Source of the DNA: an uncultured Methanosarcinales archaeon
GTDB lineage: Archaea > Nanobdellota > Nanobdellia > Woesearchaeales > JACPBV01
Reading direction: 5' to 3'
NCBI GenBank assembly: GCA_964577685.1
Contig: CAZNZT010000005.1
Span: forward strand, 4,185 to 68,184
Length of the DNA stretch: 64,000 bases
The stretch's first letter is position 1. Each line of letters starts with the position of its first letter. A program made the translations under genes and the position numbers. Below, piece after piece: positions 9,093 through 24,624 of the stretch. The notes beneath the pieces are model-generated. The model searched no databases. It was not told the origin of the DNA and saw only the letters and a list, made by a program, of their open reading frames with translations.

Positions 9093-9243
9093 TAAATTAG
9101 AATTAACCTCTAGAGAGTATATACAGATTCTCGAAAACTTTAAATATTGTAGTTTTTTATTGCTTATCTAGTCAGTTCATCAAAAACTGGCGAATTGGCT
9201 ATCTTTACATAGGAAGAACTTTATTTTCATATTTTTTTCTTTT

Positions 9244-11670: not shown

Positions 11671-11734
11671 CCTACCTTGTTTTGTTTTTGTTTTCATAGA
11701 AAAATTTAAATAATTTTAATCAAAAGAGAGAAAA

Positions 11735-11965: not shown

Positions 11966-11996
11966 TATTTATATAACAAAAAATTATCTTCTTTTT

Positions 11997-13085
11997 ATGA
12001 TAGAAATAGATGGTTCATTCTTAGAAGGTGGAGGGCAGATAGTAAGGACAGCCTTAGCTATCTCTACTGTTATTCAAAAGCCATTTTGTGTTTTTAATAT
12101 AAGGAAAGGAAGGCCTAAATCAGGTTTAAAAAATCAACATCTCTATTGCATTAAGGCTTTAGAGAAGCTATGTAATGCAAAGACAGAAGGAGCAGAGCTT
12201 GGTTCTATGAAACTGAAATATGTTCCAGGAAAGATTAAAGGTCAAACTATTTCTATTGATATTGGTACTGCTGGTTCTGTAACCTTATTGTTACAATCGT
12301 TGCTCTTACCAGCTTTTTTTTCTAATTCAAAGGTTAGATTTAAGATTAGCGGAGGGACAGATGTTCAATGGAGCCCACAGTTTGACTATTTTGCGAATGT
12401 GGTCATTCCTCAATTACAAAGATTTAGTGAGATGATAGAAATATCTCTAGTAAAGAGGGGCTATTATCCAAAAGGTGGTGGTAAGGTAGATATAAAAATC
12501 AAACCAAAATTTAGTTTAGAAAAAATAAAAGAAGCACCTCAGATTAATCTTATAGAACAATATAATTTAATTCAAATAAAAGGAATCTCCCATGCAAGTC
12601 TAGATTTACAAAAAGCACAAGTAGCTGAAAGACAAGCAAGATCAGCAAGAATTGCTTTAGGTAGATTCAATTGTCCGATTAATATTAGAACTGAATACCG
12701 TGAAACCCTATCAACTGGAAGTGGAATTACTCTTTGGGCTATATTCTCAAAGGACCTAGATGAGATAGACATTTTTAATCCAATAAGGATTGGTGCTGAT
12801 GCCTTAGGTGAGAGAGGTAAAAGGGCCGAGGATGTCGGAAAAGAGGCAGCAGATAAACTGATTCAGGAAATCAATTCTAAAGCTCCTGTTGATTCCCATT
12901 TGGCCGATAACCTAATACCCTTTTTGGCTTTATTTGGGGGTAGAATAAAGGTAAGCAAAATAACGCCCCATACATTAACAAATATTTATACATGTGAACA
13001 ATTTCTAGGTAAGATTTTTGAACTTGACGAGGATAAAAAAATAATAAGACAACTATATTTTAAACACCAAAACTTTTTTAAATAG
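11997..13085 (+). CDS. rtcA: RNA 3'-terminal phosphate cyclase
   Basis: MIEIDGSFLEGGGQIVRTALAIS... start and overall RtcA architecture (362 aa). Confidence 0.85.
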   Translation: MIEIDGSFLEGGGQIVRTALAISTVIQKPFCVFNIRKGRPKSGLKNQHLYCIKALEKLCNAKTEGAELGSMKLKYVPGKIKGQTISIDIGTAGSVTLLLQSLLLPAFFSNSKVRFKISGGTDVQWSPQFDYFANVVIPQLQRFSEMIEISLVKRGYYPKGGGKVDIKIKPKFSLEKIKEAPQINLIEQYNLIQIKGISHASLDLQKAQVAERQARSARIALGRFNCPINIRTEYRETLSTGSGITLWAIFSKDLDEIDIFNPIRIGADALGERGKRAEDVGKEAADKLIQEINSKAPVDSHLADNLIPFLALFGGRIKVSKITPHTLTNIYTCEQFLGKIFELDEDKKIIRQLYFKHQNFFK

Positions 13086-13134
13086 TTTTGTTTTCTTTGT
13101 TTTAATGATTCAAATAGGGTTATGAGGTGTAAAA

Positions 13135-13635
13135 ATGAAAACAATAGATGAATTAAAGAATGAGCAAGGACAGCTTGATTCAAATGCTATAAAATATATA
13201 ATACCATATGACACGCCATTCCTTATGATAGACAAGGTATTGAGTTTAGATAAGACAAAGATAGTTGCGATAAAGAACACATCCGCGAATGAATATTACT
13301 TTAAGGGGCATTTTGCAGGTTTTCCTATTATGCCTGGTGCTTTGATAGTGGAAGGAATGGGTCAAGCAGCAACATTGCTTGTAAGATATAACATAGAAAA
13401 TCACTGGGAAAAAGAGGTACTGGCATACAGGATAAAAGATGCTAAATTCTCGGCTCCAACATTCCCTGGAGATACAATAAAATATGAGATAACACTTCTT
13501 GGTAAGGATGACAGGGGTGCTTTACTTTCTGGGAAGGCCATAGTTAATGAAAAAGTTGTGGCAGAGGCAACAATGATGTTGGCGGTAGTTGATAGGCGGG
13601 AGTTTAGAATAAAAGCATCTCCTGTTTATAAGTGA
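13135..13635 (+). CDS. fabZ: FabZ/FabA-like hotdog-fold 3-hydroxyacyl thioester dehydratase
   Basis: YFKGHFAGFPIMPGALIVEGMGQAA matches the FabZ His/Glu active-site region. GAGGTG RBS upstream. First gene of a co-directional block. Confidence 0.75.
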   Translation: MKTIDELKNEQGQLDSNAIKYIIPYDTPFLMIDKVLSLDKTKIVAIKNTSANEYYFKGHFAGFPIMPGALIVEGMGQAATLLVRYNIENHWEKEVLAYRIKDAKFSAPTFPGDTIKYEITLLGKDDRGALLSGKAIVNEKVVAEATMMLAVVDRREFRIKASPVYK

Positions 13636-13641
13636 TTAATC

Positions 13642-14772
13642 ATGAAGAGGTATGTAAAGGGCGTTGGTATGACTAAATTCAGTGTAGAATCAAGAACTAC
13701 ACAAGACATGGCTATTGAAGCCATAAGTCTTGCTTTAGATGATTCTAACCTTAACATAAATGATATTGAAGCTGTTGTTGTTTCAACAGTCGACACAAAA
13801 GTAAATACTGAAAGGCAGAGACATTATCCTGCTGTTCTTTCAAGTCTGCTAAAGAGAAAGATGCCTATTATCAGGGTTCCAGCTGTTTGTGGTGGGGGTG
13901 GTGCTGCATTTTGGACAGCATTAAGACTAAAATACAATAATATCCTTGTTATAGGTGTTGATAATGTGTTAGCAGGGCCTACACCAATAATCACAAAAGA
14001 GATTATGAACGCTGGAGAAAATCTCTGGGAACAAGAAGAGGGGCTTAATTTTCCTGGACAAAATGCACTAGTTGCTCAGCAACATATGTTAAAATACGGA
14101 ACTACGCATGATGACTTGGCTTTAATATCCTATAAAAACCACCTTCATGGTAGCATGAATCCTAAAGCAAGATTTTATGGTAAAAAGGTAACTCTAGAAG
14201 AAATAAAGAAGGCACCAATCATAGCTTCACCATTCAATTTATATGATTGTTCAATATCTGTAAATGGGGCTGCAGCTGTTGTAGTATCAAGGGATAAAAC
14301 AGACATTAAGGTTATAGGGTCTGCCCTAGCTACGGATTATTTACCTCCATTTGAGAGGCCTGATATAACCACATGGCAATCAAGCGTAGAAGCTGGAAAA
14401 AAGGCATTTAAGGAAGCAGGAGTAGAACCAAGCGATATAGATGTGGCAGAAATCCATGATGCGTTTACAATTGTTGAACTTATATCATATGAAGACCTTG
14501 GATTTTGTAAGAAAGGAGAAGGCGGAAAACTGGTAAGAGATGGTTATGTAAACCTTGATGGAAAAATGCCTGTAAATACATCTGGGGGATTAAAGGCAAG
14601 AGGCCACCCCATATCTCCTACTGGAGTTGCCCAAATTGTTGAGATTGTTGACCAGTTAAGGGACAGATGTGGTGACCGTCAAGTTAATAATCCAAAAATA
14701 GGTTTAACCCAAAATATAGGTGGGGCTGGAGGTACAGCAACTGTTCATATTTTTAGAAAAATAGCGGGATGA
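13642..14772 (+). CDS. Thiolase-superfamily protein (archaeal DUF35-associated thiolase / SCP-x-like), paralogue A
   Basis: MKRYVKGVGMTKF start, catalytic-Cys region IIRVPAVCGGGGAAF, C-terminal GGLKARGHPISPTG..NIGGAGGT. Sits immediately upstream of a DUF35 gene. Confidence 0.75.
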   Translation: MKRYVKGVGMTKFSVESRTTQDMAIEAISLALDDSNLNINDIEAVVVSTVDTKVNTERQRHYPAVLSSLLKRKMPIIRVPAVCGGGGAAFWTALRLKYNNILVIGVDNVLAGPTPIITKEIMNAGENLWEQEEGLNFPGQNALVAQQHMLKYGTTHDDLALISYKNHLHGSMNPKARFYGKKVTLEEIKKAPIIASPFNLYDCSISVNGAAAVVVSRDKTDIKVIGSALATDYLPPFERPDITTWQSSVEAGKKAFKEAGVEPSDIDVAEIHDAFTIVELISYEDLGFCKKGEGGKLVRDGYVNLDGKMPVNTSGGLKARGHPISPTGVAQIVEIVDQLRDRCGDRQVNNPKIGLTQNIGGAGGTATVHIFRKIAG

Positions 14773-15908
14773 TAAAGATGGCAAAGATAATAAGGTGGAT
14801 ATGCGAGAAATGTAATAAGAAATGGATTTATCCAATAAGTAGGTGTCTATATTGCAATGGGGAAATAAAAAAGCAGATAGGTATGAAAATAAAGGTTATA
14901 GGATTCACAAGGATTCACATTCCGTGCCCTCCACATCCAATAGTACCCTACAATGTTCTTCTTCTGGAAGATGAATATGGGAATAGAATGCCAAAAAAAA
15001 CAATAAAGGATTACAATATAGGGGATACATACGAAGATATTCCATCTAAGGAAGAAAATGCAATAGCAATAACAAAGATAAAATATGATGTTTATGAAGC
15101 TGTTAAAGAAGCATTAGAGCTGATAGGGGATATTGAAGTAGATAGGACAAACAAAATACTTATTAAACCAAATTTGAGTATTCCTGGGTATCCATATCTT
15201 GGTATTGGAACGCATCCAGAAGTAATGAGGGGTTTATTGCGATACTTAATTGAAAGAGGAGCTAATCCAAAGAATATAACAATAGCTGAGCAAAGCTTCT
15301 TCTTTCCATTTGATAAGGCTATTGCAAAATCAAGAATCAATCAAATAGTAAAGGAGTTTGGTGTCAACCTGGTTGATTTAAGTAAAACAGAGTTCATAGA
15401 GAAAAAAGAGAGGGAATTTGTATTTAGGGTGTCTAAGATAGTTTATGATTTTGATTTGATTTTTAATGTGCCTGTTATTAAAACAGATATGTTGCTTGGT
15501 ATAGACGGGGCGTTTGAAAATCTAACGAGATTTTTATCTAAGGAAAACTTTAATGAGTTTGTAAGGGATATTAAAAAAGCTATAGGTGCTCTTGCTGTTT
15601 TACCTAACATATTACCAAGGTTTATCACGATAGGGGATGGAACCATAGGTATGCAGGGTAATGGTCCAGCAGAACATGGTGAGCCAGGATTCTATAATAT
15701 GATATTTGCAGCGAGAAATCCAGTTGTACATGATAAAATTGTACAGGAGGTATTATGTTTAAGAAGACTACCTTATGTTGAGTTAGCAGGAAAACTTGGT
15801 ATTGGTGAATATGAAGTATCAAAGATAAAAGTTATTGGAAATGAGTTAGATGCTGTTAGGAGGGATATAAAACAACCAATAGGCTCAAAGCTAATTAAAA
15901 AGGACTAA
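14769..15908 (+). CDS. DUF35 (rubredoxin-like Zn ribbon plus OB-fold) N-terminus fused to a roughly 280-aa C-terminal domain resembling DUF362
   Basis: CEKCNKKWIYPISRCLYCNG zinc ribbon followed by an OB-like segment, then KPNLSIP... and ITIGDGTIGMQGNGPAEHGEP motifs (assigned to DUF362 from memory). A single uninterrupted ORF. The ATG overlaps the upstream stop (ATGA). Confidence 0.55.
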   Translation: MIKMAKIIRWICEKCNKKWIYPISRCLYCNGEIKKQIGMKIKVIGFTRIHIPCPPHPIVPYNVLLLEDEYGNRMPKKTIKDYNIGDTYEDIPSKEENAIAITKIKYDVYEAVKEALELIGDIEVDRTNKILIKPNLSIPGYPYLGIGTHPEVMRGLLRYLIERGANPKNITIAEQSFFFPFDKAIAKSRINQIVKEFGVNLVDLSKTEFIEKKEREFVFRVSKIVYDFDLIFNVPVIKTDMLLGIDGAFENLTRFLSKENFNEFVRDIKKAIGALAVLPNILPRFITIGDGTIGMQGNGPAEHGEPGFYNMIFAARNPVVHDKIVQEVLCLRRLPYVELAGKLGIGEYEVSKIKVIGNELDAVRRDIKQPIGSKLIKKD

Positions 15909-15909
15909 G

Positions 15910-17037
15910 ATGTACATAAAAGGAGTTGGTATGACCAAATTTGGTATTTCTGGCAAGTTCTCACAGATGTTAGCATATGAAGCTACATTAGAAGCATTAA
16001 ATGATGCGGATATTAACTTTAAGGATATAGATGCTGTTGTTTGCTCTAGTTTAGAGTGGTTCTTCTCAATAGAAAAACAGAGGCACTTTGCAGCTTTGTT
16101 GGCTTCTGTTTTCAAAACCCATAAGCCAATAATTCGAGTGCCTGCTGCCTGTGCTGGTGGTGGCGCTGCCTTATGGGTAGCACAACAATTAGGTTACGAC
16201 AATGTATTAGTTGTTGGAGTAGAAAAACTGATGACATGCAAATCGGAAAGTATAACAGATGAATTTATGATGGCTGCTGAGAGCAAATGGGAGCAAGTAG
16301 AGGGGCTTAATTTTCCTGGGCAAAACGCACTAGTTGCTCAACAATATTTGGAAAAATATAAAAAAACGACTACAGAACATTTGGCTTTAATCTCTTTTAA
16401 GAATCACTCAAACGCATTACTAAATCCAAAAGCGAGATTTTATGGTAGAAAGGTAACTCTAGAAGAAATAAAAAATTCTCCAATAATATGTTCCCCGTTA
16501 AGACTCTATGATTGTTCAATATCTGTTGATGGAGCAGCTGCATGTGTTGTTACAAATGAAAAAACAGATATCAAAATAATTGGTTCTGATTTATGTGCTG
16601 AATACCTACCAACATGGGAAAGGGAAGATAGCCTTAGATGGGAGGGAACAATTATTAGCTCCAAAAATGCGTTCAACCAAGCAGGAGTAGAACCAAGTGA
16701 TATAGATGTGGCAGAAATCCATGATGCGTTTACAATTGTTGAGCTGATAGCTTATGAAGACCTTGGATTCTGTAAGAAGGGAGAGGCTTATAAAAAAATT
16801 GAAGAGGGTTATTTTAATCTTGATGGAAAGATGCCTGTAAATACATCTGGGGGATTAAAAGCAAAGGGACATCCTGTCTCTGCAACCGGATTAGCCCAGA
16901 TATATGAAATAGTAAAACAGCTTAGGGGGGAGGCTAAGGATAGGCAGGTTTCAAAAGCGAAGATAGGGCTAGCCCATAATATCGGTGGGGCAGGAGGAAC
17001 TGTTACTTGTCATATCCTAAAGAAAATCTGTGGTTAA
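15910..17037 (+). CDS. Thiolase-superfamily protein, paralogue B
   Basis: MYIKGVGMTKFG..., IIRVPAACAGGGAAL. The C-terminal half is about 90% identical at nucleotide level to paralogue A. Confidence 0.75.
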   Translation: MYIKGVGMTKFGISGKFSQMLAYEATLEALNDADINFKDIDAVVCSSLEWFFSIEKQRHFAALLASVFKTHKPIIRVPAACAGGGAALWVAQQLGYDNVLVVGVEKLMTCKSESITDEFMMAAESKWEQVEGLNFPGQNALVAQQYLEKYKKTTTEHLALISFKNHSNALLNPKARFYGRKVTLEEIKNSPIICSPLRLYDCSISVDGAAACVVTNEKTDIKIIGSDLCAEYLPTWEREDSLRWEGTIISSKNAFNQAGVEPSDIDVAEIHDAFTIVELIAYEDLGFCKKGEAYKKIEEGYFNLDGKMPVNTSGGLKAKGHPVSATGLAQIYEIVKQLRGEAKDRQVSKAKIGLAHNIGGAGGTVTCHILKKICG

Positions 17038-17055
17038 AAATTAAAGGTGATAAAA

Positions 17056-17796
17056 ATGGGTTTAAAAGGAAAAAATGCTTTAATAACAGGTTCTGCAAGG
17101 GGATTGGGAAAAGAAATGGCTCTAACATTAGCAAAGGAAGGTTGTAATATAATAGTTAATGACTTGGAAGATATGAAAGAAGAAGCGATAAAAACAGTGG
17201 AAGAGATAAAAAAACTAGGTGTAGAGTCTGATTTTGTTCCTGCAGATGTATCTGATTTTGAGAGTTGTAAAAAGATGGCTGAAACAGTAAAGCAAAAATT
17301 TGAAAAAGTTGACATACTGATAAACAATGCAGGCATAACGAAAGACAGAACATTAAAAAAGATGGTCCCGGATGAATGGTACCCAGTGATTAATGTAAAT
17401 CTAAATAGCCTATACAATGTAACCCATAATATATTGGAACTAATACCAGAAGGAGGGAGAATAATCAATATAAGTTCGGTAGCAGGTATAGCAGGAAATT
17501 TTGGACAAACGAATTATGCAGCAACAAAAGCGGGGGTGATTGGATTTACAAAATCGTTAGCAAAAGAAGTAGGCAAAAAAAAGATTACTGTCAATGCTGT
17601 TGCACCTGGTTTTATTAAGTCACCTATGACTGATAAAATACCAGTAGAGTTATTAGCAAATATTATTGAACTAATACCATTGAAAGAAATGGGGCAACCG
17701 GAAGATGTTGCTAATGCTGTAAAGTTTCTTGCTTCAGATGAAGCAAGATACATATCTGGCACTGTATTAAGGGTTGATGGAGGAATTGCTTTGTAA
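17056..17796 (+). CDS. fabG: 3-oxoacyl-(ACP/CoA) reductase, SDR family (FabG-like)
   Basis: TGSARGLG Rossmann motif, NNAGI, YAATKAGV catalytic Y/K. The track start 17047 is GTG; the in-frame ATG at 17056 is preferred. Confidence 0.8.
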   Translation: MGLKGKNALITGSARGLGKEMALTLAKEGCNIIVNDLEDMKEEAIKTVEEIKKLGVESDFVPADVSDFESCKKMAETVKQKFEKVDILINNAGITKDRTLKKMVPDEWYPVINVNLNSLYNVTHNILELIPEGGRIINISSVAGIAGNFGQTNYAATKAGVIGFTKSLAKEVGKKKITVNAVAPGFIKSPMTDKIPVELLANIIELIPLKEMGQPEDVANAVKFLASDEARYISGTVLRVDGGIAL

Positions 17797-17856
17797 CATA
17801 AGAAAGTTAAAGCAATATTTATAAAGCAATTAAAATTTGTGATTTTAGGGGATATC

Positions 17857-19008
17857 ATGAATTTTGATTTTACACCAGAACAATTGGCAATAAAAAAAAT
17901 GATTAGAGAATTCGCTGAATCAGAGATAAAACCATACGCGGAAGAGATTGACAAGGAAAAGAAGTTTCCTGAAAAACAATTAAAAAAACTAGCTAAGCTA
18001 GGGATAATGGGAATGACAATCCCAGAGGAATACGGTGGAAGCCAAATAGATTGTGTATCACAAACAATAATAATGGAAGAGTTAAGCAGGGTTTGTAACT
18101 CAACTGCTGTTTCTTTTGGTGCTCACACAAGTTTGGCATGTAACCCAATAACAAACTATGGGACAAAAGAACAAAAGGAGAAATACCTACCATTACTTGC
18201 TTCTGGGAAGTATCTTGGTGCTTTCTCTTTAACAGAGCCAAGTGCTGGTTCTGACGCAGCAAATATACAAACAACGGCTATAAGGGACGGGGATGAATAT
18301 ATCATAAATGGTTCTAAAATATTTATAACAAATGGTGCAAAGGCAGATCTAGTAAATGTTGTTGCAATGACAGACAAAGCAAAAAAACATAATGGGATTT
18401 CTATTTTTATTGTTGAAACAAAGACTCCTGGTTTTGAAGTAGGAAAGATTGAGGATAAGTTAGGACTATGCGGTTCTTGTACAGCAGAACTTGTATTCAA
18501 GGATATGAGAGTTCCAAAAGAAAACTTATTAGGAGGAATAGAGGGGCAGGGTTTCAAACAAACTATGTGGACATTGGACTCTGGTAGAATCGGTATAGGC
18601 GCCCAAGGGGTTGGTATTGCACAAGCTGCTTTTGATGAATCACTAAAATATGTGAAAGAAAGAGAACAATTTGGAAGAAAACTGTTCAAATTCCAAGCCA
18701 TACAATTCATGCTTTCTGACATGGCAATGAAAATAGATGCTGCAAGGTTATTATGCCTAAGAGCAGCAGATATGAAAGAAAAAGGAAAAAGGTATGTTAA
18801 AGAGGCTGCCATGGCAAAGTTGTTTGGTAGTGAGGTAGCAATGGAAGTAACAAGAAAGGCTATACAGATACATGGAGGATACGGATTTACTAAGGATTAT
18901 CCTGTAGAACGATTCTATAGAGATGCAAAAATTACGGAAATATATGAAGGCACATCCGAAATCCAAAGGCTAGTTATAGCTGCAGAACTGTTGGGAAGAG
19001 GTTTCTGA
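17857..19008 (+). CDS. Acyl-CoA dehydrogenase (short/medium-chain type)
   Basis: MNFDFTPEQ...FAE N-terminus, the [16 protein letters not shown] signature, and a C-terminal [14 protein letters not shown] tail. The track start 17839 is GTG; ATG 17857 is preferred. Confidence 0.85.
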
Positions 19009-19010
19009 AG

Positions 19011-19805
19011 ATGAGAATAATAGTGTGTATTAAACAAGTTCCAGATACTAATGAAGTTAAAATTGACCCAAAAAAAGGTACGCTAATTAGAGAGGGTATC
19101 CCTACGATTATGAATCCTGAAGATAAACATGCATTGTTGGAAGCAATAGAGATTAAGAATAAAACAAAAGGTAAGGTCATAGCACTCTCAATGGGGCCTC
19201 CACAAGCAGAGGAAGTATTAAGAGAGGCTCTAGCTTTAGGTGCAGATGAAGCAATATTGCTTTGTGATAGAGCTTTTGCTGGTTCTGACACATGGGCTAC
19301 AGCTAATGCTTTGGGAACAGCTATAGAAAAGATAGGCAACTATGATTTGCTGCTGTTTGGCAGACAGGCTATTGATGGTGATACAGCCCAGGTAGGTCCG
19401 CAAACAGCAGAATTTCTTAGTATCCCTCAGATAACTTATGCCAGAAAAATTGAGATTAAAGACAATAGTGTGATAGTAGAAAGGCAAATGGAAGATGGCT
19501 ATGAGATTATAAGAGGTAACTTACCTTGCTTAATAACCTGTACTTCAGATATTAATGAAATAGAATACCCAACATTAAGAGGGATAAAGCAAGCCTACAG
19601 AAATAAAAAAGTAAAGGTATGGAGTGCAGATGATATAAAAGCAAATAAATCAAAAATAGGTTTGCTAAACAGCCCTACAAGGGTAAAAAGAATATTCACA
19701 CCTCAACCAAGGGGTCAAGGTCAACTTCTTAGAGGCCCAACAAAAGAGGTAGTGAAAAAAATTGTTAATCTGCTAAAAGAGAAAGAACTAATACGGGCGT
19801 TTTAG
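19011..19805 (+). CDS. etfB: Electron transfer flavoprotein beta subunit
   Basis: MRIIVCIKQVPDT start, 264 aa, immediately followed by etfA. Confidence 0.85.
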   Translation: MRIIVCIKQVPDTNEVKIDPKKGTLIREGIPTIMNPEDKHALLEAIEIKNKTKGKVIALSMGPPQAEEVLREALALGADEAILLCDRAFAGSDTWATANALGTAIEKIGNYDLLLFGRQAIDGDTAQVGPQTAEFLSIPQITYARKIEIKDNSVIVERQMEDGYEIIRGNLPCLITCTSDINEIEYPTLRGIKQAYRNKKVKVWSADDIKANKSKIGLLNSPTRVKRIFTPQPRGQGQLLRGPTKEVVKKIVNLLKEKELIRAF

Positions 19806-20966
19806 ATGAAAGTAAAAATATCTCCAATATGTCCTGAATCAAGTCTTAACCTAGGTGGTGTTATATTAATAAGGGGAGAAGACTTCAAAGAAGTTCCAGA
19901 TATTCCTGAAGTCAGGAATGCTGTTGATAAGGGGTACTTAGAGGTACTAAAAGAAGAGAAGAAAAAAACAAAAAGTGTGAAAAAAGAAGGTAGCGAGGTA
20001 TTGGTGTTTGCAGAACAAAGAAATAATAAAATTGCTAGGGTTGTTTTTGAACTTTTAGGAAAGGCGAGGGAACTTGCAGATAAATTAAATGTGAAACTAG
20101 CTACAATTCTATTGACAGAGAAAGACAACGGATTATCTAACCAATTAATCCAATATGGTGCTGATAGGGTTTATTTAGCGGAGAACTCCTTACTTAAGAA
20201 CTATCAAACTGAGTTGTATACCAAAGTCATTGTTGAACATATTAAAAAAACAAAACCACAAATAGTAATATATGGTGCAACTAATATTGGGCGTGATTTG
20301 GCTCCAAGAATTGCACAAAGAATAACTACTGGACTAACTGCTGATTGCACAGGATTGGATATTACAGAAGAAGGTTTACTTCTACAAACAAGGCCTGCTT
20401 TTGGTGGAAACATTATGGCACAGATTGTTTGTCCAAAGCATAGACCACAAATGGCTACAATAAGACCTGGTGTAATGAAAGCAAAGGAAAAAGACAAAAA
20501 AAGAAATGGGGAAACAATCAGAGTTGAAGTGAAAATATCAGAAAAAGACAAAAAAACAGAGATCATAAAAATAATTAGAGAAACAAAGAAAAAAGTTAAC
20601 TTAGAAGAAGCGAAGATAATAGTCTCAGGTGGCAGAGGATTAGGAAAAAAAGAAAATTTCAAACTTATAGAAGAATTAGCTTCTCTGTTAAATGCTGAAG
20701 TAGGGGCTTCAAGGGCTGCTGTCGATGCGGGTTGGATTTCTAAAGAACATCAAGTTGGACAAACCGGAAAAACAGTAAGGCCAAAACTTTACCTTGCTAT
20801 AGGGATATCTGGTTCTATACAGCACAAAGCAGGGATGCAAAATTCTGATTTAATCATTGCCATTAATAAAGACCCAGAAGCACCTATATTCCAAATAGCG
20901 GACTATGGCATCGTAGATGACTTGTTTAAGATTGTTCCAGAAATGATTAAGCAATTGAAACAATAA
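19806..20966 (+). CDS. etfA: Electron transfer flavoprotein alpha subunit (with a K-rich insertion)
   Basis: C-terminal FAD-binding region YLAIGISGSIQHKAGM. 386 aa. Confidence 0.8.
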   Translation: MKVKISPICPESSLNLGGVILIRGEDFKEVPDIPEVRNAVDKGYLEVLKEEKKKTKSVKKEGSEVLVFAEQRNNKIARVVFELLGKARELADKLNVKLATILLTEKDNGLSNQLIQYGADRVYLAENSLLKNYQTELYTKVIVEHIKKTKPQIVIYGATNIGRDLAPRIAQRITTGLTADCTGLDITEEGLLLQTRPAFGGNIMAQIVCPKHRPQMATIRPGVMKAKEKDKKRNGETIRVEVKISEKDKKTEIIKIIRETKKKVNLEEAKIIVSGGRGLGKKENFKLIEELASLLNAEVGASRAAVDAGWISKEHQVGQTGKTVRPKLYLAIGISGSIQHKAGMQNSDLIIAINKDPEAPIFQIADYGIVDDLFKIVPEMIKQLKQ

Positions 20967-20998
20967 ATTTTATAATTAAAAAGCTATTTTTTTCTTTT

Positions 20999-21658
20999 AT
21001 GTTACATCCAATACAAAGGATAATAATTCCCCCTCTACTTAAATTAGTATGGATCAAAAAAATAGAGGGAATAAAAAATATACCCTTAGATGGTAAATTC
21101 GTTGCTACTCCGAATCATCAAAGTTTCTTTGATGATTGGATTGTACCAAGTATAATAGCAGTTTACCTCAATAGAGAACTTCATATGTATGTCAACAGAA
21201 AATATTTTAGAAATCCCTTGTTTAGATGGTATCTTAACCATCATAAGTGCATACCTGTAGAAGTATATAATAGTAAAGATAAAAAAGAAGTAAATGAGAA
21301 GGCATTTTGGATGGCTATGCAATATTTGGAAAAGAATGAGCCAATATGTATATACCCAGAGGGACATAGAAGTAGGGATGGGAAATTACAAATTGGAAAA
21401 CTTGGTGCAGCAAGATTGGCGATAACAGCAAGGGTTCCAGTGTTACCTATTGGCATAATTGGAACAAGAGAAGTATTACCTAAAGGAAAAATAATACCAA
21501 AAATAAAGAAGGTTATAACTGTAAAGATTGGTAAGCCTATTTATTTTAAAGAATACTACGAAAAAGGAGCAAGTAAAAAAATATTAATAAAGGCCACAAA
21601 TAAAATAATGAGAGAAATCGGAAAATTAATAGGACAGAAATACAAAAATGGTGTATGA
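20999..21658 (+). CDS. plsC: PlsC-family lysophospholipid/glycerol-phosphate acyltransferase, paralogue 1
   Basis: HX4D motif NHQSFFDD and YPEGHRS (EGTR-like) block. 219 aa. Confidence 0.7.
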   Translation: MLHPIQRIIIPPLLKLVWIKKIEGIKNIPLDGKFVATPNHQSFFDDWIVPSIIAVYLNRELHMYVNRKYFRNPLFRWYLNHHKCIPVEVYNSKDKKEVNEKAFWMAMQYLEKNEPICIYPEGHRSRDGKLQIGKLGAARLAITARVPVLPIGIIGTREVLPKGKIIPKIKKVITVKIGKPIYFKEYYEKGASKKILIKATNKIMREIGKLIGQKYKNGV

Positions 21659-22277
21659 AATATCAAAAAATACACTTGGTTTGATTGTAAATCTTTATGT
21701 GAAAGAGATAAGGGGGCTAGAGAATGTTCCAAGGAGAGGTCCCTACATAGTTGCAGCAAATCATTCTAGCTATATGGACCATTTAATTTTACAAAATATA
21801 TGGGCAAGAAAGTTTAATTTGGTCCTGCATTTTCTTGCTAAGAAAGAACACTTTGTAGGCTTACAGAAGATATGGCACAAACACTTTAAAGCTATACCAA
21901 TAGACAGAAAAAGAGGAGGAAAAACAGCCTTAAGGAAAGCTGTTAGTCTACTTAAAAGAGGAGAAGTTATTGGTATATACCCCGAAGGCACTAGAACATT
22001 AACCGGAAAACTTCAAAAGGGCAAAACAGGTGCTATTAGGCTAGCCTTAGCTTCTAGGGTCCCAATATTACCTGTAGGTATAATAGGAACATTTGAGATG
22101 TTACCAAAGGGCAAGATAATACCAAGATTTAAAAGGGCAAAGGTTAATATAGGGAAAGTTATGCATTTTGATAAATACTATGGCAAGAAGATTGATAAAA
22201 AAACATTAAGGCTTCTGACTACAAGGCTTATGAAAGAGATAGGAAGACTATGTAAAAAAAGATACATTTTTGATTAA
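21648..22277 (+). CDS. plsC: PlsC-family acyltransferase, paralogue 2
   Basis: HX4D motif NHSSYMDH and YPEGTRT block. Its ATG overlaps the end of paralogue 1 by 11 nt. Confidence 0.7.
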   Translation: MVYEISKNTLGLIVNLYVKEIRGLENVPRRGPYIVAANHSSYMDHLILQNIWARKFNLVLHFLAKKEHFVGLQKIWHKHFKAIPIDRKRGGKTALRKAVSLLKRGEVIGIYPEGTRTLTGKLQKGKTGAIRLALASRVPILPVGIIGTFEMLPKGKIIPRFKRAKVNIGKVMHFDKYYGKKIDKKTLRLLTTRLMKEIGRLCKKRYIFD

Positions 22278-22278
22278 A

Positions 22279-23259
22279 ATGGAGGTTTCTGTAATAGGCG
22301 CAGGTGGCTGGGGGACAACCTTAGCAAATCTGTTAGCAGAAAAAGGAATAGAAACTATATTGTGGGCCAGAGAACCAGAAGTAGTTAGGGAAATAGAAGA
22401 AAATAGAACAAATAATCAATTTTTACCAGGAGTTAAACTTTCTATTAAAATAAAGCCAACAAACAATCTAGAGAATGCTGTAAGAGACAAGAAAATCATA
22501 ATTATGGCTATTCCATCACAGTTTTTAAGAGTCATGGCAAAAAAAATAACAGGATATATCAAAACAGATGCTATTGTAGTAGATGTAGCAAAAGGGATAG
22601 AAGAAGGAACATTCAAGAGGATGTCCCAAATACTAGAAGAGGAGTTACCTTCTGGAGTGAGAATAATTGCTCTATCTGGACCGAACCATGCGGAGGAGGT
22701 AAGTAGAAAGATACCAACGGCTACAGTAATAGCTTCAAAGCATTCTGAAATATTAACAAAAATAAAGGAACTCTTAGAAGTAGAGTACTTCAAGGTTTAT
22801 CCACATGATGATATAATTGGAGTGGAAATATGTGGAGCGATAAAGAATATAAGCGCTATTGCTACAGGCGTTTGTGATGGTCTTGGCTTAGGGAATAATT
22901 CAAAGGCTTCTATAATCACTCTTGGTTTAATGGAGATGAGCAAAGTAGGTAGATTTTTTGGAGCAAGGAGAAGTACTTTTTATGGTCTAGCAGGAGTAGG
23001 TGATTTAGTAGCTACATGCATGTCAAAATATTCAAGGAATAGATTCGTAGGAGAAAAGATAGCTGAAGGCAAGAGTCTTGATGAAATAAAAAAAGAAATG
23101 CATGGTATGATTGCAGAAGGAGTAAAAACAACAAAAGCTGTCTATGAGTTATCAAAGAAGGAGAATATGGATTTACCTTTAACAAATCAGGTCTATAAAG
23201 TTTTATATGAAAAAAAAGAGTTAAAAAGTGCAATAAAGGATTTAATAGAATTAATATAG
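22279..23259 (+). CDS. gpsA: NAD(P)H-dependent sn-glycerol-3-phosphate dehydrogenase (bacterial-type GpsA)
   Basis: VIGAGGWGTTLA, GPNHAEE, GAIKNISAIA, GDLVATC, SRNRFVG, EGVKTTK and YKVLYEK all align with E. coli GpsA blocks. The track start 22270 is TTG; ATG 22279 is preferred. Confidence 0.85.
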   Translation: MEVSVIGAGGWGTTLANLLAEKGIETILWAREPEVVREIEENRTNNQFLPGVKLSIKIKPTNNLENAVRDKKIIIMAIPSQFLRVMAKKITGYIKTDAIVVDVAKGIEEGTFKRMSQILEEELPSGVRIIALSGPNHAEEVSRKIPTATVIASKHSEILTKIKELLEVEYFKVYPHDDIIGVEICGAIKNISAIATGVCDGLGLGNNSKASIITLGLMEMSKVGRFFGARRSTFYGLAGVGDLVATCMSKYSRNRFVGEKIAEGKSLDEIKKEMHGMIAEGVKTTKAVYELSKKENMDLPLTNQVYKVLYEKKELKSAIKDLIELI

Positions 23260-23277: not shown

Positions 23278-23880
23278 TTATTCTTCTGTGAAATCTTCAA
23301 TTGTTTCTTTTAACTCTTCATTTGGTTTTAATATCCCTCTGTTCCTGAGATATTCTCTTGCTAATATCCAAAAGAATAAGCCCAAACTCTTTTTTCCTTT
23401 ATTATTACAAGGGATTACTAAATCAATATTATTTGTTTGATTGTTTGTGTCACATAGCGCTACAACCGGGATTCCAACATTTATTGCATCCATTAAAGCA
23501 TTTCTATCTGGCCACGAGTCTGTAATTAATATAACCTTCGCTTCATGGTAGATGTCCAAATTTGGATTTGTCAACATACCTGGGGGGTATCTTCCGGCTA
23601 CGACTTTAATACCTGTAACCTTACCCAACATTCTAACTGGTTTCCATCCATTCTCTCTCCTACTGACAACTAGTATCTCATCTGGCTTATATCTTGAAAG
23701 AAATTTTGTAGCTATTCTTATTCGTTCATCTATTTTTTGTAAGTTCAGAACACTCAACCCATCTGGTCTGGTTTTATAAATAAAATCTTCCATATATTTT
23801 GTTTTGAACTTTGTACCTATATGTATTCCAGACTTTAGATACACATCTGTAGGTACTAAAAATTCTTGTGATTCTGCCAT
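23278..23880 (-). CDS. rps2: Ribosomal protein uS2 (archaeal S2)
   Basis: YLKSGIHIGTKFKTKYMEDFIYKTRPDGLSVLNLQKIDERIRIA matches the archaeal S2 N-terminal region. Confidence 0.85.
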   Translation of the reverse strand: MAESQEFLVPTDVYLKSGIHIGTKFKTKYMEDFIYKTRPDGLSVLNLQKIDERIRIATKFLSRYKPDEILVVSRRENGWKPVRMLGKVTGIKVVAGRYPPGMLTNPNLDIYHEAKVILITDSWPDRNALMDAINVGIPVVALCDTNNQTNNIDLVIPCNNKGKKSLGLFFWILAREYLRNRGILKPNEELKETIEDFTEE

Positions 23881-24017: not shown

Positions 24018-24554
24018 TTATTCTTTAGCTTTGAATATAGAGATTTCGCGATATATTGGTCCTTCTCTTGTTAGTGTACTTTCCATTAACTTGAATGAGT
24101 CTATTTTCAATTCTTCTTCATCCACTTTTATACTCTTTAGGTTCTTTATAAATCCTTCTTTATCTTTGATGGACTTAACTCTGCCTATTGTTATATGTGG
24201 ATAGAAGTTTGGTTCCTTCTTGAAACCAAGCTCAAACAAAATATTGTCTATATCTTCCTTTAACCTTGTAGGTTCTTCTTTTGGCCTTACACCAATCCAA
24301 ATAACCCTTATATAACTCTCATTAGGAAATACACCAATATTATCTAAGGTCAAGGAAAATTGACTAAAGTTTATTTTATTCAACCTTTCTTCTATTTGAT
24401 TGACTAGATTATTAGAAACCTCTCCAAGGAATTTTAGGGTTAGATGATAATCAGAAGTTAGTTTTATCTTGGCGATATTTCTATCAAGCCTTTTTTGTAT
24501 TGAACTGAGATTATTTTTTAATGGATTAAAATCTAGAGCAATGAACAATCTCAT
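24018..24554 (-). CDS. RNA 2',3'-cyclic phosphodiesterase / 2'-5' RNA ligase family (LigT/ThpR, 2H phosphoesterase)
   Basis: Two H-x-T-x motifs (HLTLKF, HITIGR). Start moved to the ATG at 24554 (MRLFIALDF), which removes an 18-aa hydrophobic leader. Confidence 0.7.
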   Translation of the reverse strand: MRLFIALDFNPLKNNLSSIQKRLDRNIAKIKLTSDYHLTLKFLGEVSNNLVNQIEERLNKINFSQFSLTLDNIGVFPNESYIRVIWIGVRPKEEPTRLKEDIDNILFELGFKKEPNFYPHITIGRVKSIKDKEGFIKNLKSIKVDEEELKIDSFKLMESTLTREGPIYREISIFKAKE

Positions 24555-24624
24555 CTTCTTAGTGATAGGCCTATGCCGTATAAAAATTATTATAAAATAA
24601 AAAAACAAGTTTTTTATTCAGGAT

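What the first reader, a model, noticed from the sequence alone, without database searches (positions are those of the whole stretch)
20999..23259. Tandem PlsC paralogues followed by a canonical GpsA: a minimal G3P to LPA to PA module
Both acyltransferases carry the HX4D and EGTR-type motifs (NHQSFFDD/YPEGHRS and NHSSYMDH/YPEGTRT). They overlap by 11 nt and run into gpsA (TTG/ATG at 22270/22279). There is no plsB/plsY, so two PlsC-like enzymes could supply both the sn-1 and sn-2 acylations. GpsA matches the E. coli enzyme block by block and makes the G3P stereoisomer, opposite to archaeal G1P.
Basis: partly seen in the sequence, partly recalled or inferred. Interest (0 to 1): 0.7.

Follow-up and report, generated by a model that had tools for sequence, protein, structure and literature searches.

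The report
Bacterial-style phospholipid genes in an archaeon
A small-celled archaeon (Woesearchaeota) carries one conserved gene block for the bacterial enzymes that make glycerol-3-phosphate and attach fatty acids to it, next to genes able to build acyl chains; this suggests, but does not prove, that these archaea make bacterial-type membrane lipids, and while the genes' presence was already reported, this organisation was not.

Summary
Window 20999-23259 (+) holds two PF01553 acyltransferase genes that overlap by 11 nt, followed 1 nt later by a full-length GpsA. The host is an archaeon: uS2 of archaeal type, Hjc, FEN1, RFC, TrmB and Pelota are all in the window, and the closest named homologues are Woesearchaeota/Nanoarchaeota. 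The triad PlsC1-PlsC2-GpsA, followed by convergent uS2, is present in all 14 other Woesearchaeota loci examined. It occurs in 1 of 69 bacterial gpsA loci. The two acyltransferases are old paralogues (42% identical; clades of 88 and 122 sequences). Both are short, very basic and lack a transmembrane helix. PlsC2 keeps all four LPAAT motifs. PlsC1 keeps the catalytic residues but has a 6-residue insertion and an unconserved Arg in motif II. In the window the triad ends an 11-gene co-directional cluster: FabZ, two thiolases, a DUF362 protein, FabG and a Bcd/EtfAB of the electron-bifurcating type. Together these form a CoA-based, ACP-free chain-building module. The best reading is DHAP to G3P to acyl-G3P to phosphatidic acid using acyl-CoA, without PlsB, PlsX or PlsY. 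Which enzyme acylates G3P is not shown. GpsA and PlsC in Woesearchaeota are already published, so this is a new variant of a known kind.

The parts
20999..21658 (+). PlsC1-type acyltransferase (219 aa). This is the divergent paralogue. HX4D is H40/D45 and motif III is PEGHR. Motif II carries a 6-residue insertion (IPV-EVYNSK-DK), with Lys where PlsC2 has Arg.
   Evidence: PF01553 81 bits. TIGR00530 59 bits, below the 103 cut-off. It belongs to a clade of 88 sequences in which H is 100% and PEGxR is 100%, while the motif II position is K27/S22/A18%. AF2 pLDDT 93.8. Foldseek best hit is TmPlsC 5KYM (E 3.6e-11, TM 0.69). No TM helix, net charge about +24, amphipathic C-terminal helix.
21648..22277 (+). 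PlsC2-type acyltransferase (209 aa). This is the canonical-looking paralogue, with NHSSYMDH, AIPIDR, PEGTR and VPILPVG.
   Evidence: PF01553 109 bits. TIGR00530 92 bits, below the 103 cut-off. It belongs to a clade of 122 sequences with H100, D100, motif II D98/R99 and PEGTR T99/R99. phmmer to 5KYM E 3.9e-18. AF2 pLDDT 88. Foldseek 5KYM E 1.6e-12, TM 0.73. No TM helix, net charge about +32.
22279..23259 (+). GpsA, NAD(P)H-dependent sn-glycerol-3-phosphate dehydrogenase (326 aa from ATG 22279). An alternative TTG start at 22270 would overlap plsC2 by 8 nt.
   Evidence: PF01210, PF07479 and PF20618. NF000942 406 bits against a 257 cut-off. 1Z82 E 3e-75, 3K96 E 1e-62, and closer to these than to Archaeoglobus 1TXG. 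35% identical and collinear with E. coli GpsA. Conserved GAGGWGT, AKGIE, GAIKN, GDLVATC and SRNR blocks are seen in those alignments.
13135..13635 (+). FabZ-type (R)-3-hydroxyacyl dehydratase. First gene of the co-directional cluster.
   Evidence: PF07977. NF000582 FabZ 122.8 bits against a 113 cut-off.
13642..14772 (+). Thiolase-like condensing enzyme 1 (archaeal 'thiolase domain-containing' type).
   Evidence: PF22691/PF02803. NF004720 357 bits, below its 420 cut-off.
14769..15908 (+). Protein with a CxxC...CxxC zinc ribbon plus DUF362. It is conserved between the two thiolase genes and its role is unknown.
   Evidence: PF04015 96 bits. No DUF35 hit for the N-terminus. No PDB relative. Same position in L003, L005, L009 and L014.
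15910..17037 (+). Thiolase-like condensing enzyme 2.
   Evidence: PF22691 167 bits. NF004720 365 bits.
17047..17796 (+). FabG-type 3-ketoacyl reductase (SDR). The public gene call starts at ATG 17056.
   Evidence: TIGR01830 301.2 bits against a 297.75 cut-off. PF13561 225 bits.
17839..19008 (+). Butyryl-CoA-dehydrogenase-like acyl-CoA dehydrogenase, proposed as the enoyl-CoA reductase. The public gene call starts at ATG 17857.
   Evidence: Three ACAD Pfam domains. Best PDB hit is the Bcd of the C. difficile Bcd/EtfAB complex, 5OL2_C, E 7e-141.
19011..19805 (+). EtfB, small subunit of an electron-bifurcating-type ETF.
   Evidence: 6FAH_B 296 bits, 5OL2_B 263, 4KPU_B 219, 7KOE_A 194. Non-bifurcating 1EFV_B scores 110 and 1EFP_B 90.
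19806..20966 (+). EtfA, large subunit, with a roughly 60-aa N-terminal extension.
   Evidence: 5OL2_A 375 bits and 6FAH_A 364, against human 1EFV_A 188. The orthologue in L004 carries a ferredoxin domain at this end.
23278..23880 (-). Archaeal/eukaryotic-type ribosomal protein uS2. It is not part of the module. It is the conserved convergent neighbour that marks the 3' boundary and the archaeal host.
   Evidence: TIGR01012 uS2_euk_arch 261 bits against a 211.5 cut-off. It lies downstream of gpsA in every related locus.

Best explanation
The three genes form a conserved unit of bacterial type in Woesearchaeota (DPANN archaea) that makes glycerol-3-phosphate ester lipids. Step 1: GpsA reduces dihydroxyacetone phosphate with NAD(P)H to sn-glycerol-3-phosphate. 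This is inferred from very strong family membership. Step 2: two peripheral PF01553 acyltransferases, both TM-less and highly basic, transfer acyl groups to the glycerol phosphate to give lysophosphatidic acid and then phosphatidic acid. The donor is probably acyl-CoA, because no ACP, PlsX or PlsY is encoded nearby. This step is inferred. PlsC2 keeps every LPAAT motif and is the likelier LPA acyltransferase. PlsC1 keeps the catalytic His/Asp and the EGxR motif but has a remodelled acceptor motif II. It is the likelier candidate for the non-canonical step, which could be acylation of G3P itself or of a different acceptor. That assignment is weak, at roughly 40%. Step 3: in this genome the acyl-CoA can be supplied by the eight genes directly upstream. 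They would form an ACP-independent elongation cycle: thiolase condensation, FabG reduction, FabZ dehydration, and enoyl-CoA reduction by a Bcd/EtfAB complex of the electron-bifurcating type. Direction and chain length are inferred and not shown. Head-group activation (CdsA or CarS) is not encoded in the window.
For: Functional linkage: PlsC1-PlsC2-GpsA occurs in that order, mostly overlapping or under 10 nt apart, in the window and in 14 other distinct Woesearchaeota loci whose GpsA is 54-74% identical where measured. Only 1 of 69 bacterial gpsA loci has a PlsC-like gene within 10 kb. Both paralogue clades keep the catalytic residues in 88 and 122 sequences, so both are under selection as enzymes. 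They differ in the acceptor motif II. There is no TM helix, a strong positive charge and an amphipathic C-terminal helix, which fits interfacial enzymes. Chain supply: FabZ and FabG pass NCBIfam equivalog cut-offs. ACAD, EtfB and EtfA score about twice as high against bifurcating Bcd/EtfAB or CarCDE complexes as against respiratory ETFs. Relatives insert pyruvate:ferredoxin oxidoreductase genes, or a FabK-like gene and a ferredoxin-EtfA fusion, into the same cluster. No ACP, PlsX, PlsY, CdsA or CDP-alcohol transferase motif was found in 317 kb of window plus related loci. Precedents: PlsM is a TM-less PlsC homologue that acylates G3P with acyl-CoA (PMC10593935). An ACP-independent archaeal fatty acid synthase has been described (bioRxiv 10.1101/2024.07.05.601840). 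No archaeal PlsX or PlsB was found in a survey (PMC6431249).
Against: No activity has been measured for any of these proteins. Both acyltransferases score below the TIGR00530 trusted cut-off. PlsC1 lacks the conserved motif II Arg that binds the acceptor phosphate in characterised GPATs and LPAATs, which is not what one would naively expect of a G3P-binding enzyme. Only 64 kb of the genome was visible, so a PlsY or another GPAT could lie elsewhere. One partial PlsY-like protein has been reported from a Woesearchaeota MAG. The closest solved relative of the ACAD is a short-chain (C4) enzyme, so the upstream genes could be a butyrate-type fermentation route rather than a long-chain synthase. L004 has CoA-transferase genes beside them. 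In several lineages the triad stands alone, without the chain-building genes. DPANN archaea are generally thought to take lipids from hosts (PMC11868695), and Coleman et al. judged a membrane role for archaeal PlsC/PlsY unlikely (PMC6431249).
Confidence: 0.5

Rival explanations
1. Conventional division of labour. A separate G3P acyltransferase encoded elsewhere in the genome (PlsY-like or unknown) makes LPA. The two tandem genes are both LPA acyltransferases that differ in acyl-chain or acceptor preference, as in bacteria with several plsC paralogues.
For: Both proteins are closest to the LPAAT TmPlsC among solved structures. Only 64 kb of the genome is visible. A partial PlsY-like hit exists in one Woesearchaeota MAG in Coleman et al.'s supplementary table.
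Against: PlsY needs acyl-phosphate made by PlsX from acyl-ACP. No archaeal PlsX or PlsB was found in a domain-wide survey (PMC6431249). No ACP, PlsX or PlsY motif occurs in 317 kb of these loci. The paralogues differ in the acceptor motif, not only in the acyl tunnel.
Confidence: 0.2
2. Lipid salvage and remodelling. The archaeon takes fatty acids or lysolipids from a bacterial host. The two acyltransferases re-acylate scavenged lysophospholipids in a Lands-cycle manner. GpsA supplies G3P for head groups or for redox balance rather than for de novo backbone synthesis.
For: DPANN archaea have reduced genomes and are thought to depend on hosts for lipids (PMC11868695, PMC8204110). In several lineages the triad has no chain-building genes nearby. 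NCBIfam's best full-length-model hit for PlsC1 is the acyltransferase domain of acyl-ACP-phospholipid O-acyltransferase (Aas), a lysolipid-reacylating enzyme.
Against: The invariant and often translationally coupled link to gpsA points to glycerol phosphate as the acceptor. No acyl-CoA synthetase or lipase is present in the cluster. In this genome a complete chain-building set lies directly upstream.
Confidence: 0.15
3. Catabolic cluster. The upstream genes run as beta-oxidation. GpsA oxidises G3P released from scavenged phospholipids. The acyltransferases work in reverse (CoA-dependent transacylation) to release acyl-CoA.
For: Acyl-CoA dehydrogenase, ETF and thiolase are classical beta-oxidation components. 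Thiolase and GpsA reactions are reversible.
Against: FabZ and FabG are biosynthetic-type, R-specific enzymes that pass equivalog cut-offs. The ETF is of the bifurcating type, which in characterised complexes drives enoyl-CoA reduction. No crotonase/HADH pair, acyl-CoA synthetase or ETF:quinone oxidoreductase is present. POR genes are inserted in a relative's cluster.
Confidence: 0.05
4. The acyltransferases act on a non-glycerolipid acceptor such as an amino-lipid, glycolipid or protein, and the adjacency to gpsA has no functional meaning.
For: PF01553 also contains OlsA-, PatA- and tafazzin-type enzymes. There are weak NCBIfam hits to ornithine-lipid acyltransferases. Both proteins score below the TIGR00530 cut-off.
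Against: The adjacency is conserved in all 15 loci while the surrounding genes change. The EGxR phosphate-binding motif is invariant in both clades. The best structural match is an LPAAT.
Confidence: 0.05

Closest known systems
Bacterial phosphatidic acid pathway (GpsA, then PlsB or PlsX/PlsY, then PlsC)
   Same: GpsA is a clear family member. The acyltransferases have the GPAT/LPAAT fold, HX4D and EGxR. The expected product is the same: diacyl-sn-glycerol-3-phosphate.
   Different: The host is an archaeon. No PlsB, PlsX, PlsY or ACP is seen. Two short (about 210 aa) TM-less paralogues replace the PlsB/PlsY plus PlsC pair. The tandem-plsC-gpsA order is essentially absent from bacterial gpsA loci (1 of 69).
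Mycobacterial PlsM/PlsB2 system (PMC10593935)
   Same: The system is independent of PlsX/PlsY and uses acyl-CoA. PlsM is a PlsC homologue without predicted TM domains that acylates G3P as well as LPA.
   Different: Homology of PlsC1 or PlsC2 to PlsM specifically was not tested, because no PlsM sequence was available to the tools. Mycobacteria pair PlsM with a large PlsB-type enzyme, not with a second short PlsC.
Thermotoga maritima PlsC (PDB 5KYM)
   Same: It is the best sequence and fold match for both paralogues. Motifs I-IV align for PlsC2.
   Different: The sequence alignments start at about residue 66 of TmPlsC, so its N-terminal two-helix membrane motif has no sequence counterpart. The models show one short N-terminal helix and a long basic C-terminal helix. 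PlsC1 has an insertion and no Arg in motif II.
Bacterial-type lipid genes reported in archaeal MAGs (Marine Group II/III, Asgard, DPANN; PMC6431249, PMC8204110, PMC10936187)
   Same: It is the same phenomenon. GpsA from Woesearchaeota MAGs, and an adjacent PlsC/GpsA pair from archaeon GW2011_AR11, are already in Coleman et al.'s data set. Fab genes and G3PDH near MEP genes were noted by Castelle et al.
   Different: Those papers list presence or absence. None of those I read or searched describes the fixed triad, the two paralogue clades, the motif II divergence, the TM-less architecture or the link to a bifurcating Bcd/EtfAB module.
Archaeal ACP-independent fatty acid synthase of Sulfolobus acidocaldarius (bioRxiv 10.1101/2024.07.05.601840)
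   Same: It uses CoA-bound intermediates, an archaeal-type thiolase as condensing enzyme, an SDR ketoacyl reductase and a hot-dog dehydratase.
   Different: No DUF35 scaffold was detected, and a Zn-ribbon/DUF362 protein sits in its place. The dehydratase is FabZ-type rather than MaoC. The enoyl reductase is Bcd/EtfAB-type rather than an NADPH-dependent MDR enzyme.
Clostridial Bcd/EtfAB and Acetobacterium CarCDE electron-bifurcating enoyl-CoA reductases (PDB 5OL2, 6FAH)
   Same: All three subunits have these complexes as best solved relatives.
   Different: Here the genes are embedded with FabZ/FabG-type (R-specific) enzymes and glycerolipid genes rather than with Hbd/Crt. Bifurcation itself and chain-length range are untested.

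Membership tests
GpsA, NAD(P)H-dependent glycerol-3-phosphate dehydrogenase (EC 1.1.1.94) | N-terminal Rossmann NAD(P)-binding domain with GxGxxG (PF01210) | tested here: met
   PF01210 179.6 bits, residues 5-160. The motif is GAGGWGT.
GpsA, NAD(P)H-dependent glycerol-3-phosphate dehydrogenase (EC 1.1.1.94) | C-terminal substrate-binding domain (PF07479, PF20618) and a score above a curated family cut-off | tested here: met
   PF07479 193.5 bits. NF000942 406.2 bits against 257, and NF000940 343 against 202.
GpsA, NAD(P)H-dependent glycerol-3-phosphate dehydrogenase (EC 1.1.1.94) | Conserved catalytic and substrate blocks (KG, GAxKN, GDL..TC, SRNR), collinear with characterised enzymes | tested here: met
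   The blocks are identical or conservative in alignments with T. maritima 1Z82, Coxiella 3K96 and E. coli GpsA. Mapping of these blocks to catalytic Lys/Asn/Asp/Thr/Arg rests on published GPDH structures recalled from knowledge.
GpsA, NAD(P)H-dependent glycerol-3-phosphate dehydrogenase (EC 1.1.1.94) | Product is sn-glycerol-3-phosphate, not sn-glycerol-1-phosphate | not testable with these tools
   This is inferred from family membership only. G1P dehydrogenase belongs to an unrelated fold. The window's only member of that fold is a genuine AroB (TIGR01357 378 bits against 305).
PlsC / LPAAT (AGPAT family, PF01553, TIGR00530) | Motif I, catalytic HX4D | tested here: met
   PlsC1 has H40-x4-D45 and PlsC2 has H39-x4-D44. 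His is 100% in both clades. Asp is 85% (Glu 14%) and 100%.
PlsC / LPAAT (AGPAT family, PF01553, TIGR00530) | Motif II, conserved Arg that binds the acceptor phosphate | tested here: inconclusive
   PlsC2 meets it (AIPIDR, R 99% in its clade). PlsC1 does not: it has a 6-residue insertion and Lys in the window protein, and the clade position is K27/S22/A18%.
PlsC / LPAAT (AGPAT family, PF01553, TIGR00530) | Motif III EGTR and motif IV (V/I)P(V/I)xP | tested here: met
   PEG and R are invariant in both clades. Thr is 99% in PlsC2 but H43/T23/R15% in PlsC1. VPVLP / VPILP is present.
PlsC / LPAAT (AGPAT family, PF01553, TIGR00530) | Score above NCBIfam TIGR00530 trusted cut-off (102.95 bits) | tested here: not met
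   59.3 bits for PlsC1 and 92.1 bits for PlsC2. They are safe members of the PF01553 superfamily but not of the curated PlsC model.
PlsC / LPAAT (AGPAT family, PF01553, TIGR00530) | GPAT/LPAAT alpha-beta fold | tested here: met
   AF2 pLDDT 93.8 and 88.0. Foldseek top hit is 5KYM (TM 0.69 and 0.73), followed by plant GPAT, human GPAT1, PatA and LpxM.
PlsC / LPAAT (AGPAT family, PF01553, TIGR00530) | N-terminal two-helix membrane-embedding motif as in TmPlsC, or a TM anchor as in E. coli PlsC | tested here: not met
   Sequence alignments begin at TmPlsC residue about 66. Only one short N-terminal helix is modelled. The maximum 19-residue hydropathy is 1.45-1.55 and falls in the core sheet.
PlsC / LPAAT (AGPAT family, PF01553, TIGR00530) | Acylation of 1-acyl-G3P at sn-2 | not testable with these tools
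   An enzyme assay or complementation is required.
G3P acyltransferases PlsB / PlsY(+PlsX) | Presence of a PlsB-size (about 800 aa) PF01553 protein, or a polytopic PF02660 PlsY with PlsX | tested here: not met
   None was found among window ORFs scanned with Pfam/NCBIfam. There is no genuine multi-TM candidate apart from an unrelated 741-aa protein. A crude motif search over 317 kb of window plus related loci found nothing. The rest of the genome is unseen.
Electron-bifurcating Bcd/EtfAB-type enoyl-CoA reductase | Three subunits (ACAD, EtfB, EtfA) encoded together and closest to known bifurcating complexes | tested here: met
   The genes are contiguous at 17839-20966. 5OL2, 6FAH, 4KPU and 7KOE score about 2-fold higher than the non-bifurcating 1EFV, 1EFP and 1O94.
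Electron-bifurcating Bcd/EtfAB-type enoyl-CoA reductase | Second FAD in EtfB and NADH/ferredoxin-coupled bifurcation | not tested
   Residue-level FAD-site motifs were not examined. The activity needs biochemistry.
Archaeal fatty acid synthase complex (thiolase/DUF35 + KCR + HCD + ECR) | DUF35 scaffold protein paired with the thiolase | tested here: not met
   There is no DUF35 (PF01796/PF12172) hit even at E up to 5 for the N-terminus of the protein between the thiolases. That protein is DUF362 with a CxxC...CxxC ribbon.

The most novel reading that the evidence does not exclude
Woesearchaeota make bacterial-type diacyl-sn-glycerol-3-phosphate lipids de novo by a route that needs no ACP, PlsB, PlsX or PlsY. 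A CoA-based elongation cycle driven by an electron-bifurcating enoyl-CoA reductase would feed two soluble or peripheral PlsC-like paralogues. One of these would have evolved into a G3P acyltransferase. If so, a whole archaeal lineage sits on the bacterial side of the lipid divide or has a mixed membrane. The fused double-PlsC proteins seen in Asgard archaea and Patescibacteria would be the same two-step machine in one polypeptide.
Probability: 0.3. Interest if true: 0.85.

Novelty: new variant of a known kind. Interest (0 to 1): 0.55.

Why it matters
The lipid divide separates G1P ether isoprenoid lipids in archaea from G3P ester fatty-acid lipids in bacteria and eukaryotes. It is a central unsolved problem for early cell evolution and eukaryogenesis. 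Published surveys list scattered bacterial lipid genes in archaeal MAGs and mostly doubt that they work in membrane synthesis. Here the genes form a fixed, translationally coupled three-gene cassette that is conserved across a lineage and often attached to a complete ACP-free chain-building set. That makes the question directly testable. Three small soluble-looking proteins, about 750 residues in total, can be expressed in E. coli plsB, plsC and gpsA mutants or assayed in liposomes. The result would show whether an archaeon encodes a self-sufficient route to phosphatidic acid, and whether a PlsC-type enzyme can replace PlsB/PlsY. If the result is negative, the cassette is a lipid-salvage device, which would inform how DPANN symbionts handle host lipids.

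Tried and rejected
1. I suspected the DHQS-fold gene at 59901-60992 might be G1P dehydrogenase. It is a genuine AroB inside a shikimate operon.

2. I tested whether the protein between the two thiolases is a DUF35 scaffold. There was no Pfam hit at E up to 5 and no PDB relative.

3. I tried to use fused double-PF01553 proteins as a Rosetta stone for 'PlsC1 half + PlsC2 half'. The halves do not sort cleanly by HMM score. Only 3 of 9 fusions show one Arg-containing and one Arg-less motif II, which is suggestive only.

4. I tried to assign sn-1 versus sn-2 roles from motifs. The block III spacing EGxRxxxGK is the same in both and in TmPlsC. Motif II is variable across the wider short-PlsC family. 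No assignment is justified.

5. I checked whether bacterial-labelled close homologues (Flavobacteriales, Nomurabacteria) indicate bacterial carriers of the triad. Both lie on contigs with archaeal RadA/RPA/uS2 synteny and are therefore mis-binned.

6. The genome-contig scan did not return the window's own genome, so whole-genome presence or absence of PlsY, EgsA, GGGPS or CdsA could not be checked.

7. A literature search for Woesearchaeota together with acyl-CoA dehydrogenase/ETF returned nothing relevant.

8. Bacterial sigma-70 promoter and terminator scanning was not used, because the host is archaeal. A/T richness (32% GC) makes TATA-box calls in the 32-nt EtfA-PlsC1 spacer meaningless.

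Full report
**What is in the sequence.** Window 20999-23259 (+) contains three ORFs exactly as described.
- ORF 20999-21658 is 219 aa and carries NHQSFFDD and YPEGHRS.
- ORF 21648-22277 is 209 aa and carries NHSSYMDH and YPEGTRT. It overlaps the first ORF by 11 nt.
- The third ORF starts at TTG 22270 or ATG 22279 and ends at 23259.

Both short proteins match Pfam PF01553 (81 and 109 bits against a 23-bit cut-off). The third matches both GpsA domains and NCBIfam NF000942 at 406 bits against a 257 cut-off. Public gene calls and homologue N-termini use the ATG, giving 326 aa. GpsA is 35% identical to E. coli GpsA over 322 residues with two gap positions. The GAGxxGT, KG(I/L)E, GAxKN, GDLVxTC and SRNR blocks are shared. 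The same holds against the T. maritima and Coxiella structures.

**Whose genome it is.** The window is archaeal. It encodes:
- uS2 of the archaeal/eukaryotic type, directly convergent on gpsA (TIGR01012 261 bits against 211.5);
- FEN1, RFC small subunit, a TFIIS/RpoM-type protein, a PAN-like ATPase, Hjc, Pelota and TrmB.

The window is about 32% GC throughout. The 120 best GpsA homologues are 59-75% identical. Wherever a source names them, they are called Woesearchaeota or Nanoarchaeota, which are DPANN archaea. Two close homologues labelled Flavobacteriales and Nomurabacteria lie on contigs with the same archaeal neighbours, so they are binning errors. The nearest bacterial GpsA proteins (Clostridia, Dehalococcoidia) are only 42-47% identical. 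The protein is closer to bacterial GpsA structures than to the Archaeoglobus enzyme. This fits an old acquisition from bacteria that has since been inherited within the lineage.

**The triad is a conserved unit.** I examined 14 further distinct Woesearchaeota loci: L003, L004, L005, L007-L009, L011-L016, L087 and L089. For the twelve found through GpsA itself (L003-L016), GpsA identity to the window ranges from 54 to 74%.
- Every locus with sequence upstream of gpsA has two PF01553 genes immediately before it, in the same orientation.
- The genes mostly overlap or are separated by fewer than 10 nt.
- Archaeal uS2 is convergent downstream.
- The surrounding genes change. Upstream there may be RadA/RPA, pilins or fatty-acid genes.
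- By contrast, only 1 of 69 bacterial gpsA loci has a PlsC-like gene within 10 kb.

This is strong comparative evidence that the three genes work together.

**The two acyltransferases are distinct, old paralogues.**
- They are 42% identical.
- A neighbour-joining tree of 228 homologues splits them into a PlsC1-type clade of 88 sequences and a PlsC2-type clade of 122 sequences.
- Both clades keep the catalytic His (100%), the Asp/Glu of HX4D, and P-E-G-x-R (100%). Both are therefore maintained as enzymes.
- PlsC2 also keeps motif II (AIPxDR, Arg 99%) and EGTR (Thr 99%).
- PlsC1 has a 6-residue insertion in motif II. The position aligned to the Arg is Lys in the window protein and variable in the clade (K27/S22/A18%). 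Its motif III reads EG(H/T/R)R.
- Motif II is also variable in the wider family of short PlsC-like proteins.

**Both proteins look like peripheral membrane enzymes.**
- Both score below the curated PlsC model TIGR00530 (59 and 92 bits against 103).
- Both align to T. maritima PlsC only from its residue 66 onward, so its two-helix membrane motif has no sequence counterpart.
- Neither has a transmembrane helix. Their net charges are about +24 and +32. Each ends in an amphipathic basic helix.
- AlphaFold2 models are confident (pLDDT 93.8 and 88.0). Their best structural match is TmPlsC, followed by plant and human G3P acyltransferases, PatA and LpxM.

In the window the triad is the end of an 11-gene co-directional cluster (13135-23259). 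Spacers range from an 11-nt overlap to a 42-nt gap; the gap is 60 nt if the ACAD starts at the public-call ATG 17857. The cluster contains:
- a FabZ-type dehydratase, which passes NF000582;
- two archaeal-type thiolases with a Zn-ribbon/DUF362 protein between them;
- a FabG-type reductase, which passes TIGR01830;
- an acyl-CoA dehydrogenase with EtfB and EtfA.

All three subunits of that last set have the electron-bifurcating Bcd/EtfAB of C. difficile (5OL2) and CarCDE of A. woodii (6FAH) as best solved relatives. Scores are about twice those for respiratory ETFs. No ACP, ketoacyl-ACP synthase, crotonase/HADH pair or acyl-CoA synthetase is present. The most economical reading is an ACP-independent, CoA-based elongation cycle running in the reductive direction. 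It would be a hybrid of the archaeal thiolase-based synthase shown in Sulfolobus (bioRxiv 10.1101/2024.07.05.601840) and a clostridial enoyl-CoA reductase.

Relatives support this reading. One inserts pyruvate:ferredoxin oxidoreductase genes into the cluster (L005). Another has a FabK-like gene, a ferredoxin-EtfA fusion and DXR beside gpsA (L004).

There are also caveats:
- The closest solved ACAD is a C4 enzyme.
- L004 has CoA-transferase genes nearby, so a butyrate-type fermentation role for the upstream genes is not excluded.
- In several lineages the triad stands alone.

**Mechanism proposed.** GpsA makes sn-G3P from DHAP. This rests on strong family membership, and the stereochemistry is inferred. 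The two interfacial acyltransferases then use acyl-CoA to give LPA and PA. PlsC2 is the likelier LPA acyltransferase. PlsC1, with its altered acceptor motif, is the likelier enzyme for the unusual step. I hold this assignment at only about 40%, because loss of the motif II Arg is not an obvious adaptation for binding G3P.

The PlsB/PlsY-independent reading is supported by four points:
- No such genes or motifs occur in the window or in about 250 kb of related loci.
- No archaeal PlsX or PlsB was found in a published survey, and only one partial PlsY-like hit comes from a Woesearchaeota MAG (PMC6431249).
- PlsY depends on acyl-ACP-derived acyl-phosphate.
- Mycobacterial PlsM is a precedent: a TM-less PlsC homologue that acylates G3P with acyl-CoA (PMC10593935).

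Recent work shows that PlsC and PlsY accept both glycerol-phosphate stereoisomers (PMC13400652). Backbone chirality would therefore be set by GpsA.

Nothing here shows activity. The rest of the genome is unseen. The rivals are a GPAT encoded elsewhere, lipid salvage, catabolism and a non-glycerolipid acceptor. They keep about half of the probability between them.

**Relation to what is known.** Already published:
- GpsA and PlsC homologues in Woesearchaeota MAGs. An adjacent PlsC/GpsA pair from archaeon GW2011_AR11 has consecutive accessions in Coleman et al.'s table.
- Fab genes and G3PDH near MEP genes (PMC8204110).
- FabG/FabI/FabZ and cyclopropane-fatty-acid synthase in DPANN MAGs (PMC10936187).

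Coleman et al. considered a membrane function unlikely. The Black Sea study (PMC11868695) assumes that DPANN cannot make the building blocks.

I did not find the following in the searched library:
- the invariant three-gene cassette;
- the two paralogue clades with different motif II;
- the TM-less architecture;
- the coupling to a bifurcating-type Bcd/EtfAB chain module.

I therefore class the finding as a new variant of a known kind, of moderate interest. It is a compact, directly testable candidate for a self-sufficient archaeal route to bacterial-type phosphatidic acid.

**Related observations.** Among the closest non-Woesearchaeota relatives of these proteins are single polypeptides with two PF01553 domains.
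- One comes from a Promethearchaeota (Asgard) MAG.
- One comes from a Patescibacteria MAG.
- One 1115-aa protein combines an acyl-AMP ligase, a carrier domain and two acyltransferase domains.
- In three of nine fusions, one domain keeps the motif II Arg and the other does not.

This hints that 'paired PlsC-like domains' may be a recurrent two-step acylation device. It is not proof.

Noticed in passing
window 14769-15908 (+); also L003 1474-2592, L005 1-1111, L009 5100-6230, L014 14044-15111: A protein with an N-terminal CxxC...CxxC zinc ribbon and a DUF362 domain sits next to thiolase genes in Woesearchaeota clusters, and between two of them wherever both flanks are visible (window, L003, L009, L014). 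It has no DUF35 Pfam hit and no solved relative. It may replace the DUF35 scaffold that pairs with thiolases in other archaea.
   Followed up: partly
proteins P0375, P0408, P0378, P0356, P0444, P0455, P0499: Close relatives of the short PlsC-like proteins occur as fusions of two PF01553 domains. One is from a Promethearchaeota (Asgard) MAG and one from a Patescibacteria MAG. A 1115-aa protein has AMP-binding + carrier + two acyltransferase domains. In three of the fusions, only one of the two domains keeps the motif II Arg.
   Followed up: partly
L087/L088 and L089/L090; titles of L007, L008, L010, L014: Public records label contigs carrying this archaeal triad as Flavobacteriales, Candidatus Nomurabacteria or 'uncultured Methanosarcinales'. 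The neighbours (archaeal uS2, RadA, RPA, TRAM, LigT) show they are Woesearchaeota-type contigs, so the bins or names are wrong.
   Followed up: yes
L004/L006 (JAHWIK010000002.1) 1-13438; L005 1122-3473: In one relative, DXP reductoisomerase (bacterial MEP pathway) lies directly after gpsA. Four CoA-transferase genes, a FabK/NMO-like gene and an EtfA with an N-terminal ferredoxin domain lie upstream. In another relative, three pyruvate:ferredoxin oxidoreductase subunit genes are inserted between the DUF362 gene and the thiolase.
   Followed up: no
L009 7546-9261; L016 4862-5629: There are variants of the cluster. L009 goes from FabG straight to PlsC1 with no ACAD/ETF genes. L016 has an extra 255-aa ORF of unknown function between PlsC2 and GpsA.
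   Followed up: no
window 43531-50041 (-): A block of five genes has no Pfam or NCBIfam match: three paralogous lipoprotein-like proteins (316-336 aa, N-terminal signal plus Cys), a 741-aa protein with about 8 hydrophobic segments, and a 406-aa protein. It may be a cell-surface or transport system of unknown kind.
   Followed up: partly
window 54388-63794 (-): A complete bacterial-style aromatic amino acid operon sits in a DPANN genome, a group usually described as biosynthetically poor. Confirmed by NCBIfam: DAHP synthase, AroB and fused AroD/AroE. Read from the translations only: split transketolase, EPSP synthase, chorismate synthase, prephenate dehydrogenase and prephenate dehydratase.
   Followed up: partly
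window 5791-7846 (+): A riboflavin-related cluster contains an HTH-fused CTP-dependent riboflavin kinase, two DMRL-synthase-family genes (one weak, possibly riboflavin synthase of the archaeal type) and a metallophosphoesterase between them.
   Followed up: no
window 11997-13085 (+) and 24018-24608 (-): RNA 3'-phosphate cyclase lies immediately upstream of the lipid/fatty-acid cluster. A 2',3'-cyclic phosphodiesterase (LigT) plus a TRAM-domain gene lie just downstream of uS2. The LigT-TRAM-uS2 neighbourhood is conserved with the triad in most related loci.
   Followed up: no
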